From: Candidatus Heimdallarchaeota archaeon
Lineage (GTDB): Archaea > Asgardarchaeota > Heimdallarchaeia > JABLTI01
Assembly: GCA_019058275.1 (NCBI GenBank)
Contig: JAHLVW010000117.1
Span: forward strand, 1-15,885
Direction of reading: 5' to 3'
Length of the DNA: 15,885 nucleotides
The notes under the pieces were generated by a model. The model was not told the DNA's origin. It did not search any database and worked only from the letters and a program-made list of their open reading frames with translations. The translations under genes were made by a program, and so were the position numbers. Positions within the stretch are counted from its first letter, which is position 1; every line of letters starts with the position of its first letter. This document shows positions 1 through 3,264 of the stretch, one piece after another.

Positions 1-992
1 ACAGTGAAAGCCATAGCTCTCATCATTGAACCAATTTCGTTGTTCAAAATTGCTATCCAAGTAGCATAAAGAGCATCTTCAAACTCATCAGCAGTTTTGA
101 AACCTACCCCTTTAACAGTATTGTCTTGGAAATTTTCAGTGTAATCAACTCCATGAGCCATAACCTGCTCCCATTCATTTGTTAAAGCATAACTGGTTTG
201 ATTTTCTGCTGTGGTTCGTGAACCCATGAATATTTCAGCATAACGCTCATCAGTAAAGTTTTGATTTGCAGGTAGATCATAAATGTAGATAGCATCGCAA
301 ATTAACTCATCAAAATTGATGTTGATAATATATGGTCGTGAGCTGTTGGTTGCTTCTAAATCTAATCTAAAGAATAGATGTTGTTGCACTGGTAGGAATT
401 TGTTTAAAATTGTGGTGTTCGTCGTATCTGCTCCATCGGTGATATTACCTGTTAGAGCATCAGAATAAGAAACATTTACTAGAGTGTTACTAGTTAATGC
501 TGATCGTGCTTTATGAATTGCTAAATATTGGTAAGTTTCTGAATTAAAATTATCAGTGATCTCGTAGGCATCTGTTTGATCAGTTACATTTTCAAAATAA
601 TTGCTAGTTCCTTTATTAAGGAATCTTTCAAGTTGCCAACTTGAAATCTCTTCCTCTTTTTCAGTTGTGCAGTCAACATTGACCTTATCAACATCTGAAG
701 AGGATATTACCATCTCTGAATCAATATCCATTTGCAGTTGACCGTTAGGTGTCAAACGAATATTGGAGATGTGTTCAGTGTTAGGGAATGATAAAAACTG
801 TGATTTACAACTTAAAGTCGCATCATTATCGAATGTGATAGGTGCTGTAGTGGTGATAGTCACGTCAGGAAAAAGTTCTACTTTAGTAGTTGTTGCTGCA
901 TGACTATTCGAAATACTAGCAGTATTAACAACAATCAAACCAGAAAGAATGAGTGTTGCTAATAATATTCTGATTTTTGTATTTAGCTTCAT
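1..992 (-). CDS. Secreted/surface glycoprotein of unknown function (N-terminal ~330 aa; runs off window start; missing from ORF track)
   Basis: Manual translation from ATG at 992 is open to position 1: MKLNTKIRILLATLILSGLIVVNTASISNSHAATTTKVELFPDVTITTTAPITFDNDATLSC... Basic N-terminus, hydrophobic core and SHA|A fit a Sec signal peptide. N-x-S/T sequons NVT, NVS, NIT, NTT, NSS, NFT, NQT. GGAGG site at 1008-1004. Confidence 0.85.
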   Translation of the reverse strand, partial: MKLNTKIRILLATLILSGLIVVNTASISNSHAATTTKVELFPDVTITTTAPITFDNDATLSCKSQFLSFPNTEHISNIRLTPNGQLQMDIDSEMVISSSDVDKVNVDCTTEKEEEISSWQLERFLNKGTSNYFENVTDQTDAYEITDNFNSETYQYLAIHKARSALTSNTLVNVSYSDALTGNITDGADTTNTTILNKFLPVQQHLFFRLDLEATNSSRPYIININFDELICDAIYIYDLPANQNFTDERYAEIFMGSRTTAENQTSYALTNEWEQVMAHGVDYTENFQDNTVKGVGFKTADEFEDALYATWIAILNNEIGSMMRAMAFT

Positions 993-1004
993 TTTTTTGA
1001 AAAC

Positions 1005-1121
1005 CTCCCGGGGATCCCCGTCTGGCCCTGGCCTTGGAACAGGCATTTTTGTTCGAATGGTCCCTGAGGGAAGATGTTCGAACTATGATTTTGAGTATTG
1101 GATTAGCGAGGATCCCAGGAA
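1005..1121 (-). ncRNA. Putative structured 5'-leader (cis-regulatory) RNA of the secreted-protein gene
   Basis: 62/120 GC over 1001-1120 versus ~30% background. Closing stem UCCUGGGAUCCUCG (1120-1107) / CGGGGAUCCCCGGGA (1020-1006) uses G-U pairs valid only on the minus strand. Inner stems GUUCGAA/UUCGAAC, UCCC-UCA-GGGA and GCCU-N6-AGGC. Confidence 0.6.
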
Positions 1122-1145
1122 TTCAATTATATACTAGTAGATTTT

Positions 1146-1178
1146 CTTTAAAAGTGTATTGACAAGTGTCTGGACAAG
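1146..1178 (-). promoter_or_regulatory. Putative TATA box (TTTTAAAG) with adjacent 12-bp direct repeat, in a divergent promoter region
   Basis: Minus-strand TTTTAAAG at 1153-1146 lies ~25 nt upstream of the 5' end of the folded leader. Plus-strand AAGTGTATTGAC (1152-1163), AAGTGTCTGGAC (1164-1175), AAG. Confidence 0.45.
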
Positions 1179-1266
1179 AAAAATTATTTCAAGTAAAACA
1201 AAACGTTAATAATGGCATAAAATTGATTTCGCTTTAGACATTGATAACAAGCACAGGTGTATATAT

Positions 1267-3264
1267 TTGTCTAAACGAAATATTTTGCTAATAATTACAA
1301 TTGTAGTGTTTACATTATTTATTTCACAAGTAAATATAGTAAAAGGCATTTCATTTATTGAAGATGCTACAGATGATGTTTTGAGATATGAAATTGGGGA
1401 ATTTGATGAAAAAGGAGATTTCCAAAACGAAATCGACATTGTAAGTTTAACTTTCGTTGGAATTGATTTGTGTCTAACACTTCAATCTGATCCTTTGCTT
1501 GATGATAATTTTCACTTATATGAAGTTACTATCATCTGGGATAAAACAGGAACATATGAAAACAAAACAGATATAGAAGTTGGTAGTATAAACGGCACTC
1601 CAATGACTGATACAATAACTCATACTCTTGTAAATGCTTCAGGTGTTGCTTTACCCGACCAACCAGATCCAATCTCAGATAGTACTAAAATTGATGATAA
1701 TCAATTAATATGGGAAATGAATGTCCTTATTTTTGAAAATATGGCTAATCCATATTATGTTAATGCTTCTGCACAGTATTCAACAATGGAAAATCTTAGT
1801 GTAGTTTTATACCAAGATTCCTATTTGGAAGGCGAGAAACCAACTCCACCTCCAGTAGAACCTCGCTTCGATTTTAATACAATCTTGTCGATATTAGGAA
1901 CATTACTTGTTTGTGGTTTTGCAGGATACACAATTGGTTCAATCTCAGTGTATTTCCTAACAACAAACATCAAAGCTAAACAAAACAATACCATATTCAT
2001 GGCTGTATTTGTCCTTGCTCTGGCAATTCTGGTTAATGTCTGGTTTTGGTCTGGACCTTGGCAAATACTTTGGAATGTTGGAATATTCTTTGTAACAATT
2101 GTAATCGGTTATCTATGGGCAGCTAGAGGAATTATGAATCTAAAATTCGATTCACCGTTACCGGATAATTTACCAATAGATACAGATGAAGACAAAAGAG
2201 CTGTCATAGTTTTATCAAAAGGAGAAGCAGAGGAATATAATCCATTAGCAGTTATAAGGCAATACTATAAAAAATCTGAAACAGGCGTAAACCAAAAAGC
2301 AAAGTATTTGCAACCTTTTGAATTTTATAAAGAGAAAAGAAAATACCGTAAAATTATCAAAGGACAATCTGCTTTAACAACAGATGACATAAAGTTAAAT
2401 CAACCAAAGAATCCATATCGCAAAATCTCAAAAACGATTACAGAGAAATTAGAAGGGGCATTTTTGGATTATGATCTGTATCTAGAAGCTTTCGTTAATG
2501 ATTGGCCTACAATGAATCAGGCATTACTTACAGTAATATCTCAAGGTGCAAACAAGATTACTATTCTTAATCTCTTCATGACTAATGATTTCAAATATGA
2601 TATTGCTCTTGATGAAATGAAAAGAATTGATTACTCAGAAATCGGTGTATCTATATTACAAACAGATTTCTTAGCTACATCAAAAGAAATACCAAACTTG
2701 ATTTCTAAGAAGATCAAAGCAGCTGTTCCTGGTGGTAAAGATATCAAAAAGATTGGAGTACTTCTCATTGCTGAAGGTCAACCATTTGAATGGGATGAAG
2801 TGTATCCAATAACAGATCAAGAAAATTTCTTCAGAGACAAAATTAAAAAGAAATTGAAGAAAGAAGGATTCAAAGAAGAGAACATAAAAACAGCTTGGAT
2901 TTATGATAGAAAACCAACAATAACTGAAGCAGTTGAAAGACTTGTTAATAATGGTTGTAAAACAATCATTCACGTTGCTACAACAACTCCAATCGACTGC
3001 ATTCACTCATTATATGACATACCAGAGGCAATGACTAAACTTTCAAAGGAAAAGGAATTTGAAGCAATACCAATTAACGCATGGAATGACAATGAAGAAA
3101 TAATACAAACCTACCTCGGATTAATTACAAATGCAAAAGAAATGCCATTAGCTGAACTCGGAAAGGATGCAGAAATCATACTTCAATCAACAAAAATAGG
3201 AGCAAAATTAACAGAACCTACTGTTGAAGAAGAAAAAGAAGTTGAACCTAATTCTGAAAATTAA
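1267..3264 (+). CDS. Membrane protein: signal peptide, acidic extracellular domain, Pro linker, 3 TM helices, C-terminal class II chelatase (ferrochelatase/CbiX)-like domain
   Basis: TTG start with upstream AGGTG; hydrophobic N-terminus; KPTPPPVEP linker; three hydrophobic segments. Chelatase-like motifs RAVIVLSKGE, NPY, AFVNDWPTMNQAL, KIGVLLIAEGQP, RKPTITEAVERL..GCKTI, DCIHSLYDIP and AWND. Confidence 0.75.
   Translation: MSKRNILLIITIVVFTLFISQVNIVKGISFIEDATDDVLRYEIGEFDEKGDFQNEIDIVSLTFVGIDLCLTLQSDPLLDDNFHLYEVTIIWDKTGTYENKTDIEVGSINGTPMTDTITHTLVNASGVALPDQPDPISDSTKIDDNQLIWEMNVLIFENMANPYYVNASAQYSTMENLSVVLYQDSYLEGEKPTPPPVEPRFDFNTILSILGTLLVCGFAGYTIGSISVYFLTTNIKAKQNNTIFMAVFVLALAILVNVWFWSGPWQILWNVGIFFVTIVIGYLWAARGIMNLKFDSPLPDNLPIDTDEDKRAVIVLSKGEAEEYNPLAVIRQYYKKSETGVNQKAKYLQPFEFYKEKRKYRKIIKGQSALTTDDIKLNQPKNPYRKISKTITEKLEGAFLDYDLYLEAFVNDWPTMNQALLTVISQGANKITILNLFMTNDFKYDIALDEMKRIDYSEIGVSILQTDFLATSKEIPNLISKKIKAAVPGGKDIKKIGVLLIAEGQPFEWDEVYPITDQENFFRDKIKKKLKKEGFKEENIKTAWIYDRKPTITEAVERLVNNGCKTIIHVATTTPIDCIHSLYDIPEAMTKLSKEKEFEAIPINAWNDNEEIIQTYLGLITNAKEMPLAELGKDAEIILQSTKIGAKLTEPTVEEEKEVEPNSEN

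What the first reader, a model, noticed from the sequence alone, without database searches (positions are those of the whole stretch)
1004..1125. GC-rich three-way-junction leader RNA that can sequester the ribosome-binding site: riboswitch/thermometer-like candidate
Seen: a 52% GC island in ~30% GC DNA lies between a TATA-like box (1153-1146) and the ATG at 992. On the minus strand a 14-15 bp closing stem (1121-1107 with 1020-1005, one bulge, G-U pairs) covers most of the GGAGG site and encloses two hairpins (1083-1051 and 1044-1031) plus an A/U/C-rich linker. The 3' arm contains a perfect palindrome CGGGGAUCCCCG (1020-1009) that can fold locally and free GGAGG, giving two mutually exclusive folds. 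I do not recognise it as a known RNA class. Inference: a translational switch, or an mRNA-stabilising leader of an abundant surface protein.
Basis: partly seen in the sequence, partly recalled or inferred. Interest (0 to 1): 0.7.

Follow-up and report, generated by a model that had tools for sequence, protein, structure and literature searches.

The report
Conserved structured mRNA leader, Heimdallarchaeota
The GC-rich island is a real, evolutionarily conserved folded 5' leader RNA, absent from Rfam, in front of a family of secreted membrane-anchored proteins in one genus of Heimdall (Asgard) archaea; its long closing helix ties the start of the transcript to the ribosome-binding site, but nothing shows that it senses temperature or a ligand.

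Summary
Window 1124-990 (minus strand) folds as described, with a 14-bp closing helix P1 (1120-1107 with 1020-1006) around two hairpins.

P1 is the conserved part. It recurs in 19 leaders (18 distinct) from four MAGs of one Heimdallarchaeota genus and from metagenome contigs. All sit upstream of one orphan family of secreted, C-terminally anchored proteins.
- On the model-fitted alignment, 10 of 13 P1 pairs change on both sides and 93% of cells pair.
- P1 cells show 24 G.U pairs against 1 A.C, so the helix is selected in the sense-strand RNA.
- A conserved TATA box lies 25-28 nt upstream of P1. This puts the predicted, unmapped start 1-6 nt before the helix.

Other conserved features are a GUUCC loop motif, ACUCAARAUCA, AAGGGCYAGA and GGAGGUUU. 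The large inner hairpin (1083-1051) is dispensable: one relative has lost it by deletion and others carry different inserts.

The palindrome-based alternative fold is not conserved and is weak (-4.9 kcal/mol against about 16 for P1). P1 stays closed in silico above 60 C, so a thermometer is unlikely. No Rfam family matches. The element is not a dispersed repeat.

Best reading: a new cis-acting 5'-UTR element that protects the mRNA 5' end and limits ribosome access, probably with a binding site for an unknown factor. The mechanism is inferred. The scan's earlier notes held nothing on this element.

The parts
1155..1175 (-). Tandem repeat GTCCAGACA (1175-1167) and GTCAATACA (1163-1155) upstream of the TATA box; candidate transcription-factor site
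   Evidence: The same GTCnnnAC(A) pair is kept at this position in most leader-bearing loci (ungapped alignment anchored on P1). The function is inferred.
1146..1153 (-). TATA box (TTTTAAAG; TTTATAAA in relatives)
   Evidence: It is conserved 25-28 nt upstream of the first C of P1 in all 15 loci aligned and in L088. Assignment as the TATA box rests on established archaeal promoter geometry (TATA centred near -26/-27).
1127..1136 (-). Conserved A/T-rich block TAGTATATAA between the TATA box and the predicted start (like a promoter-proximal element); alternatively a second TATA box
   Evidence: TAGTATAT is kept in 11 of 15 loci. If it were the TATA box, the start would fall near 1104 and the covarying 5' arm would not be transcribed, which conflicts.
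1121..1124 (-). Predicted transcription start zone, not mapped. The 5'-terminal GAAUU can pair with GGUUU just after the ribosome-binding site (outer helix P0).
   Evidence: Inferred from TATA spacing. P0-type pairing of the 5' end (GAA/AAC) with U-rich sequence just 3' of GGAGG appears in 6 of 10 single-sequence folds.
1107..1120 (-). P1, 5' arm (UCCUGGGAUCCUCG)
   Evidence: MFE pair list. Covariation: 10 of 13 pairs change on both sides and 93% of cells pair. G.U 24 against A.C 1.
1085..1096 (-). Conserved motif ACUCAAAAUCAU; unpaired in the window, but the 3' strand of a hairpin in other clades
   Evidence: ACUCAARAUCA is present in most leaders. It pairs with GAUUU-type sequence in L029, L032, L034 and L030.
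1051..1083 (-). P2 hairpin (GUUCGAA/UUCGAAC with an inner CCCU/AGGG stem); variable and dispensable
   Evidence: Folded. A related hairpin exists in G004. It is removed by a roughly 30-nt deletion (27 alignment columns) in G005:C154, and replaced or absent in G010, L030, L088 and C6.
1031..1044 (-). P3 hairpin carrying the motif GCCUGUUCCA (1044-1035)
   Evidence: GUUCC is present in all 19 leaders (CYUGUUCC in 18, GGUUCC in L034). It lies in or at the edge of a hairpin loop whose stem register differs between clades. In the own genome the motif followed by GGAGGT occurs only at the three leaders.
1021..1030 (-). Conserved junction CAGGGCCAGA (consensus AAGGGCYAGA) directly 5' of the P1 3' arm
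   Evidence: Near-invariant in 16 of 19 leaders. GGGC can pair with GCCU of the loop motif (4 bp, only one-sided changes), so that pairing is unproven.
1006..1020 (-). P1, 3' arm (CGGGGAUCCCCGGGA); overlaps the first three nt of GGAGG and contains the non-conserved palindrome 1020-1009
   Evidence: The palindrome hairpin is worth -4.9 kcal/mol.
1004..1008 (-). Shine-Dalgarno sequence GGAGG (GGAGGU is complementary to the 16S 3' end ...GGAUCACCUCCU)
   Evidence: GGAGGU is invariant in all leaders. The 16S 3' end was read on contig C115. Unpaired probabilities in the window are G 0.00, G 0.01, A 0.10, G 0.13, G 0.15.
3..992 (-). 5' part (330 codons) of the regulated gene: a secreted protein with an N-terminal signal peptide; the gene runs off the contig
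   Evidence: Translation. The complete paralog P0001 (491 aa) has a C-terminal membrane anchor and 7 N-X-S/T sequons. No Pfam family matches. The family has 15 clusters among 5.8 billion proteins.

Best explanation
This is a genuine cis-acting structured 5' untranslated leader of about 130 nt, a new RNA motif. It belongs to the mRNA of a secreted, membrane-anchored protein, which in complete loci is the first gene of a two-gene operon.

Transcription most likely starts at about 1124-1121, from a strong conserved promoter made of upstream repeats, TATA 1153-1146 and an A/T-rich proximal block.

The first nucleotides of the RNA pair with the sequence that ends in, and just follows, the ribosome-binding site. 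This forms a 13-14-bp helix P1 (1120-1107 with 1020-1006), plus a weak outer helix. P1 encloses a variable set of hairpins that present an invariant GUUCC loop motif and two conserved junction strands.

Inferred consequences:
- The base-paired 5' end shields the mRNA from 5'-end-dependent decay.
- The helix holds part of GGAGG in duplex and so sets, or limits, ribosome loading.
- The invariant unpaired motifs are a docking site for a still unknown trans-acting factor (a protein, an RNA or a small molecule) that could modulate either effect.

Shown: the structure, its conservation, its strand and its exclusive link to this gene family. Inferred: the start site, the effect on stability and translation, and the existence of a factor.
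For: Structure:
- MFE -44 kcal/mol, z = -3.3.
- P1 is worth about 16 kcal/mol.
- P1 is present in all 10 independent single-sequence folds of diverse homologs.

Conservation:
- 19 leaders (18 distinct) were recovered from G000 (three copies), G004 (two), G005 (two), G010 and metagenome contigs.
- On the model-fitted alignment A6, 93% of P1 cells pair and 10 of 13 pairs change on both sides. No shuffle of 500 reaches the observed values, and all slid registers pair far less.
- On the plain MAFFT alignment A3 of 10 sequences, 91.5% of cells pair, against at most 70% when slid.
- L089 and L088 have P1 arms of quite different sequence that still form 13-14 bp.

Strand: 24 G.U against 1 A.C in P1 cells, so the selection acts on the sense RNA, not on the DNA or on an antisense transcript.

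More conserved than the gene:
- Leader identity to the paralog on C2 is 94%, against 58-78% in the coding sequence and 54% upstream.
- In G004 two leaders are far more alike than the 27%-identical proteins they precede, and the similarity stops at the AUG.

Promoter: a TATA box sits at a fixed 25-28 nt from P1, with conserved upstream repeats.

Specificity:
- Covariance models R1 and R2 find it only upstream of this family, in the order's 12 genomes and the class's 83.
- A pattern scan of 185,579 species representatives returns true hits only from these MAGs.

Analogy: 5'-UTR stem-loops stabilise mRNAs of secreted proteins, for example H. pylori vacA (PMC4843948). The E. coli ompA leader is a second example, from my own knowledge.
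Against: - No transcription start, expression or half-life data exist. The conserved TAGTATAT block could itself be a TATA box, which would start the RNA inside the element.
- All sequences come from one genus-level lineage and are related, so covariation cell counts are inflated by shared descent. The larger alignments were fitted to the model.
- Within-genome homogenisation of paralogous leaders is evident: the two G000 copies and the two G005 copies each share derived states. Part of the sequence identity therefore reflects gene conversion rather than selection.
- The interior is poorly conserved in architecture. The C6 copy lacks both junction motifs. Two homologs (L035 at 55% and L031 at 38% protein identity) have no such leader, so it is not essential to the gene.
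- Occlusion of the ribosome-binding site is only partial outside the window's clade.
Confidence: 0.62

Rival explanations
1. It is a true switch: a riboswitch or protein-responsive translational operator. Binding of a ligand or protein to the conserved junction and loop (ACUCAARAUCA, GUUCC, AAGGGCYAGA) would stabilise or open P1/P0 and so gate access to GGAGG.
For: - The layout resembles an aptamer: a covarying closing helix that ends in the ribosome-binding site, invariant unpaired nucleotides, and variable peripheral hairpins.
- The first G residues of GGAGG are paired in every homolog, and GUU after it can pair with the 5' end.
Against: - No Rfam family matches.
- The gene context is an orphan secreted protein family, not a transporter or a biosynthetic gene.
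- No conserved alternative (anti-P1) pairing was found, and the only one proposed, the palindrome, is not conserved.
- The helix order differs between clades, and C6 lacks two of the three motifs.
- P1 is very stable, so it would need active opening.
Confidence: 0.22
2. It is a conserved 5' homology cassette (promoter, leader and signal-peptide region) kept alike by gene conversion among paralogous, variable surface-protein genes. The RNA fold would be incidental or secondary.
For: - Paralogs within one genome share derived leader states.
- Identity extends about 135 nt into the coding sequence in the window's clade.
- Copies sit at contig breaks (C114 and C6 both end inside the gene).
- Promoter types and coding-sequence types are reshuffled between genomes.
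Against: - Homogenisation cannot produce compensatory double changes, nor a 24:1 excess of G.U over A.C.
- In G004 the similarity stops exactly at the AUG, and the proteins are 27% identical.
- Leaders of lineages with 50% protein identity keep P1 with different sequences.
Confidence: 0.1
3. It is an RNA thermometer: heat melts the helix that hides GGAGG.
For: The ribosome-binding site is partly inside a helix that contains U.G pairs and a bulge.
Against: - P1 is a GC-rich 14-bp helix.
- In silico the first two G of GGAGG stay 98% or more paired up to 80 C, and the last two open only above about 60 C.
- Known thermometers rely on short, weak, mismatched helices (established knowledge of ROSE and fourU elements).
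Confidence: 0.03
4. It is a miniature inverted-repeat transposable element, another dispersed palindromic repeat, or a chance fold.
For: It has inverted-repeat ends about 85 nt apart, with GGATCC palindromes in both arms.
Against: - There are only three copies in the 4.1-Mb assembly, all upstream of paralogs of one gene.
- The same holds in relatives.
- The G.U excess is strand-specific.
- The distances to the TATA box and to the AUG are fixed.
Confidence: 0.02

Closest known systems
5'-UTR stabiliser stem-loops of mRNAs for secreted or surface proteins (H. pylori vacA, PMC4843948; E. coli ompA and Lactobacillus slpA leaders, from my own knowledge)
   Same: A long leader in front of an exported protein gene, with a stable helix that involves the extreme 5' end of the transcript, upstream of a strong ribosome-binding site. 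It is conserved among strains.
   Different: This one is archaeal (Asgard), and the sequences are unrelated. The helix is long-range, from the 5' end to the ribosome-binding site, rather than a local 5' hairpin. It encloses invariant unpaired motifs that a pure stabiliser would not need. No decay data exist.
Translational riboswitches and protein-binding operators whose closing helix overlaps the Shine-Dalgarno sequence (for example SAM-II, preQ1-II, ribosomal-protein leaders)
   Same: A covarying closing helix ends in the ribosome-binding site, the junction and loop nucleotides are conserved, and the peripheral helices vary.
   Different: There is no match to any of 4227 Rfam models, no metabolic gene context and no conserved alternative pairing. 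The architecture is rearranged between clades, and the ligand or protein is unknown.
RNA thermometers (ROSE, fourU)
   Same: The ribosome-binding site is partly base-paired in the leader.
   Different: The helix is far too long and GC-rich. It is predicted to stay closed well above any plausible growth temperature.
Archaeal L7Ae-binding K-turn leaders and box C/D-like elements
   Same: They are archaeal 5'-UTR protein-binding structures.
   Different: No 3-nt bulge followed by tandem G.A/A.G pairs is present next to P1 in any homolog (by inspection). There is no Rfam hit either.

Membership tests
Any described RNA family (Rfam 15) | Score at or above the family's gathering threshold with its covariance model | tested here: not met
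   There were 0 matches at gathering thresholds in the window. In 850-1350 at E<=10 there was only an irrelevant SNORD65 hit at 1269-1320. Nothing fell on the leader in seven homologous loci at E<=1.
Riboswitch (generic) | Conserved aptamer: covarying helices around invariant unpaired nucleotides | tested here: inconclusive
   P1 covaries and three or four unpaired motifs are conserved. However, the inner helices differ in number, order and register between clades.
Riboswitch (generic) | Expression platform with mutually exclusive pairings | tested here: not met
   The only alternative proposed, the palindrome hairpin, is worth -4.9 kcal/mol against about 16 for P1 and is not conserved.
Riboswitch (generic) | Ligand binding, and a gene context related to the ligand | not testable with these tools
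   The downstream genes are orphan secreted proteins with no Pfam family.
RNA thermometer | Weak helix over the ribosome-binding site that melts in the physiological range | tested here: not met
   Partition-function folds from 4 to 80 C: the unpaired probability of the first two G of GGAGG is at most 0.04 at every temperature, and that of the last G exceeds 0.5 only at 60 C and above. This is in silico only.
MITE / dispersed repeat | Many copies in unrelated genomic contexts | tested here: not met
   There are three copies in G000, all upstream of paralogs, and one to three per positive genome in relatives, always in the same context.
5'-terminal stabiliser stem-loop (ompA/vacA type) | Helix beginning within a few nucleotides of the transcript's 5' end | tested here: inconclusive
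   The spacing from the TATA box to P1 is 25-28 nt in all loci, which predicts a 5' tail of 1-6 nt. The start site is not mapped.
5'-terminal stabiliser stem-loop (ompA/vacA type) | Removal of the helix shortens the mRNA half-life | not testable with these tools
   This needs decay assays in a cultivable or surrogate host.
K-turn / L7Ae-binding leader | 3-nt bulge followed by tandem sheared G.A pairs flanking a C-stem | tested here: not met
   AGA precedes the P1 3' arm, but the opposite strand after the 5' arm never shows NNN-GA (sequences). This was by inspection only.

The most novel reading that the evidence does not exclude
The leader is a factor-responsive translational regulator peculiar to Heimdallarchaeota. 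An unknown protein, RNA or metabolite would recognise the invariant GUUCC loop and the AAGGGCYAGA/ACUCAARAUCA junction and would lock or open the P1/P0 clamp around the ribosome-binding site. This would control a recombining family of cell-surface proteins. It would be the first riboswitch-like or operator-like cis-regulatory RNA class described from Asgard archaea.
Probability: 0.22. Interest if true: 0.75.

Novelty: new variant of a known kind. Interest (0 to 1): 0.48.

Why it matters
Very few cis-regulatory RNA structures are known in archaea, and my paper searches found none described for Asgard archaea, the closest prokaryotic relatives of eukaryotes. This element has comparative support: a covarying helix, sense-strand specificity and a fixed promoter geometry. 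It is tied to one orphan family of exported, membrane-anchored, probably glycosylated proteins that is patchily distributed and shows signs of recombination.

It offers three things:
- A concrete, testable handle on post-transcriptional control in Heimdallarchaeota.
- A candidate strong promoter and leader for expression tools.
- A correction for gene calls, because several homologs are annotated with false N-terminal extensions that read through the leader.

Its range is narrow: one genus and about 19 sequences. The mechanism is unproven, which limits its immediate weight.

Tried and rejected
- Rfam at gathering and at permissive thresholds, on the window and on seven homologous loci: no family.
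- ARAGORN: no tRNA or tmRNA, despite the T-arm-like GUUCGAA.
- Covariance-model hits outside the family were rejected. G010:C52:31724 lies inside a coding region. G024:C155 and G080:C226 lack the motifs and a downstream gene. G009 and others have E>0.05.
- Fourteen bacterial hits in the GTDB pattern scan and ten hits in the metagenome scan failed the covariance model.
- Coding explanation for the conserved GCCUGUUCCA (in-frame ATG at 1046): rejected. The start codon and the frame are not conserved, and other homologs have stops.
- Pseudoknot between the GUUCC loop and GGAG/GGGA of the ribosome-binding site: topologically possible, but it needs fraying of P1, and both partners are invariant, so it is untestable here. 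I left it as speculation.
- K-turn, bulge-helix-bulge and hammerhead-like readings: the motifs are absent on inspection.
- Function of the downstream protein. Pfam found none. The AlphaFold2 model was unusable (mean pLDDT 43), so no fold search was run. The ESM Atlas gave nothing above 0.78. IMG/VR held no relative.
- Genome-wide TATA-to-ATG distance profile, to show that the leader is unusually long: only a weak peak at 40-59 nt, too noisy to use.
- Earlier notes of this scan: nothing on this element or this protein.
- Literature searches for Asgard riboswitches or 5' UTRs found nothing relevant.

Full report
**What is there.** The window is contig C114 of a 4.12-Mb, 32.5% GC metagenome-assembled genome. 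Close homologs of its proteins are named Candidatus Heimdallarchaeota, and the neighbouring genes look archaeal: a KaiC-like ATPase, a class III signal-peptide protein and PAS histidine kinases.

On the minus strand, a 51% GC island (1001-1100) lies between TTTTAAAG (1153-1146) and GGAGG (1008-1004) with ATG at 992. The ATG opens a gene for a protein with an N-terminal signal peptide, and the gene runs off the contig. The complete paralog on contig C2 (P0001, 491 aa) ends in a membrane anchor and has 7 N-X-S/T sequons.

**The fold.** RNAfold of 1124-990(-) gives -44 kcal/mol, z = -3.3, with 1 of 200 shuffles folding as well. It contains these helices:
- P1: 1120-1107 with 1020-1006, 14 bp, with one bulged C and two U.G pairs.
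- A short extension of P1.
- P2: 1083-1051.
- P3: 1044-1031.

Forbidding the 5' arm from pairing costs about 16 kcal/mol, while the palindrome hairpin is worth only -4.9. From 4 to 80 C in silico the first two G of GGAGG stay paired, and the last two open only above about 60 C.

**Relatives.** The own genome has a 96%-identical copy upstream of a paralog on C2. A short variant sits upstream of a third copy at the edge of C6.

The GTDB order holds only 12 genomes. The protein family and the leader co-occur in four of them: G000, G004, G005 and G010.

A search of 5.8 billion proteins found only 15 clusters. I fetched the DNA upstream of eleven of them:
- Nine have the leader, including lineages with only 50-54% protein identity (L029, L030, L032, L033, L034, L088).
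- Two lack it (L035 and L031).

G004:C8 and metagenome contig L073 carry the leader in front of a 563-aa protein that is only 27% identical to P0001. There the similarity stops at the AUG.

**Specificity.**
- A pattern scan of 185,579 species representatives and of JGI metagenomes returned true hits only from this lineage. One of those records is labelled Bathyarchaeia at NCBI.
- Covariance models R1 and R2 found nothing credible elsewhere in the class's 83 genomes.
- In G000, GCYTGTTCCA followed by GGAGGT occurs only at the three leaders.

**Comparative support for P1.** On the plain MAFFT alignment of 10 leaders, 91.5% of P1 cells pair, against at most 70% in slid registers.

On the model-fitted alignment of 18 distinct leaders, 93% of P1 cells pair and 10 of 13 P1 pairs change on both sides. 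Over the whole structure there are 30 double-change cells, no shuffle of 500 reaches any observed measure, and slid registers give 34-72%. This alignment leans towards the structure, and the sequences are kin.

Three independent observations back it up:
- Every single-sequence fold contains P1.
- L088 and L089 form 13-14 bp with arms of quite different sequence.
- P1 cells hold 24 G.U against 1 A.C. A DNA-level or antisense inverted repeat would not give this, so the sense RNA is what is selected, and the 5' arm must be transcribed.

**Promoter.** Aligned on P1 without gaps, all loci show three elements:
- A TATA box (TTTATAAA or TTTTAAAG) whose 3' end lies 25-28 nt before the first C of P1.
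- An A/T-rich TAGTATAT block between the two.
- A tandem GTCnnnACA repeat upstream of the TATA box.

With the archaeal rule that the TATA box is centred near -26/-27 (established knowledge), the start falls 1-6 nt before P1, at about 1124-1121 in the window. The 5'-terminal (G)AAC or GAAUU can pair with GUU(U) right after GGAGG in 6 of 10 folds. That leaves the central A-G of the ribosome-binding site in an internal loop.

**What is and is not conserved inside.** Conserved features:
- GUUCC, in all 19 leaders (CYUGUUCC in 18), always in or at the edge of a hairpin loop, with stems in different registers.
- ACUCAARAUCA, single-stranded in the window's clade and the 3' strand of a hairpin in others.
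- AAGGGCYAGA, directly before the P1 3' arm.
- GGAGGU, invariant, usually followed by UU.

Not conserved:
- P2 is dispensable. It is removed by a roughly 30-nt deletion between TTCGAA repeats in G005:C154 (27 alignment columns), and it is replaced or absent in others.
- The C6 copy is a bare P1 with a GUUCC loop.
- The palindrome in the 3' arm is specific to the window's clade.
- Occlusion of GGAGG is deep in the window (unpaired probabilities 0.00-0.15) but partial elsewhere.

**Selection or conversion.** The leader is 94% identical to the C2 paralog's, against 58-78% in the coding sequence and 54% upstream. Both G000 copies and both G005 copies share genome-specific states, so gene conversion contributes. 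Conversion cannot explain compensatory changes, the G.U bias, or the G004 pair whose similarity ends at the AUG.

**Interpretation.** The element is a new, lineage-restricted structured 5' UTR. The best-supported mechanism has three parts, all inferred:
- A clamp joins the transcript's 5' end to the ribosome-binding site.
- The clamp protects the 5' end, by analogy with vacA (PMC4843948) and with the ompA and slpA leaders (my own knowledge).
- The clamp also tempers initiation, while the invariant loop and junction motifs act as a likely factor-binding site.

A genuine ligand- or protein-operated switch is possible, at about 0.2. A thermometer, a MITE and a chance fold are effectively excluded.

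The protein family itself stays uncharacterised: no Pfam family, a failed structure model, and no viral relatives.

Noticed in passing
window 1155-1175 (-), and the same position in L015, L020, L027, L030, L033, L045: A tandem repeat GTCCnnACA / GTCAnTACA sits just upstream of the conserved TATA box in most leader-bearing loci. It looks like a transcription-factor binding site shared by this gene family.
   Followed up: partly
window 993-1046 (-); P0003, P0004, P0014: The leader has no stop codon in the gene's frame, and an in-frame ATG at 1046 lies inside the invariant GCCUGUUCCA motif. The ORF finder and public gene calls therefore extend several homologs by 18-60 false N-terminal residues. 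L028 has the opposite error: its gene is called from an internal ATG.
   Followed up: yes
window 3-992 (-); G000:C2:482-1954; G000:C6:28-219; L073:4067-5758: This is an orphan family of secreted, C-terminally anchored, sequon-rich proteins. In complete loci each gene is followed by a distant paralog of about 530 aa. The family is patchily distributed (4 of 12 genomes). Copies end contigs, and promoter, leader and coding-sequence modules are reshuffled between genomes, which suggests recombining surface-protein genes. Some loci sit next to integrase or HNH genes (L032, L033, L034).
   Followed up: partly
L059 (DATKZI010000052.1) = G010:C52: A record labelled 'Candidatus Bathyarchaeia archaeon' at NCBI carries the same leader and gene as G010, which the GTDB-based genome set places in the window's Heimdallarchaeota genus. 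The NCBI label is probably a taxonomic mislabel.
   Followed up: no
window 949-1137 (+) and 1206-1439 (-): These mechanical ORFs of 62 and 77 aa overlap the leader and the promoter region. They are almost certainly not genes.
   Followed up: no
L073:383-1555: A bactofilin-domain protein (390 aa) and a HEAT-repeat protein lie upstream of the 563-aa paralog on the metagenome contig. Their relevance is unknown.
   Followed up: no
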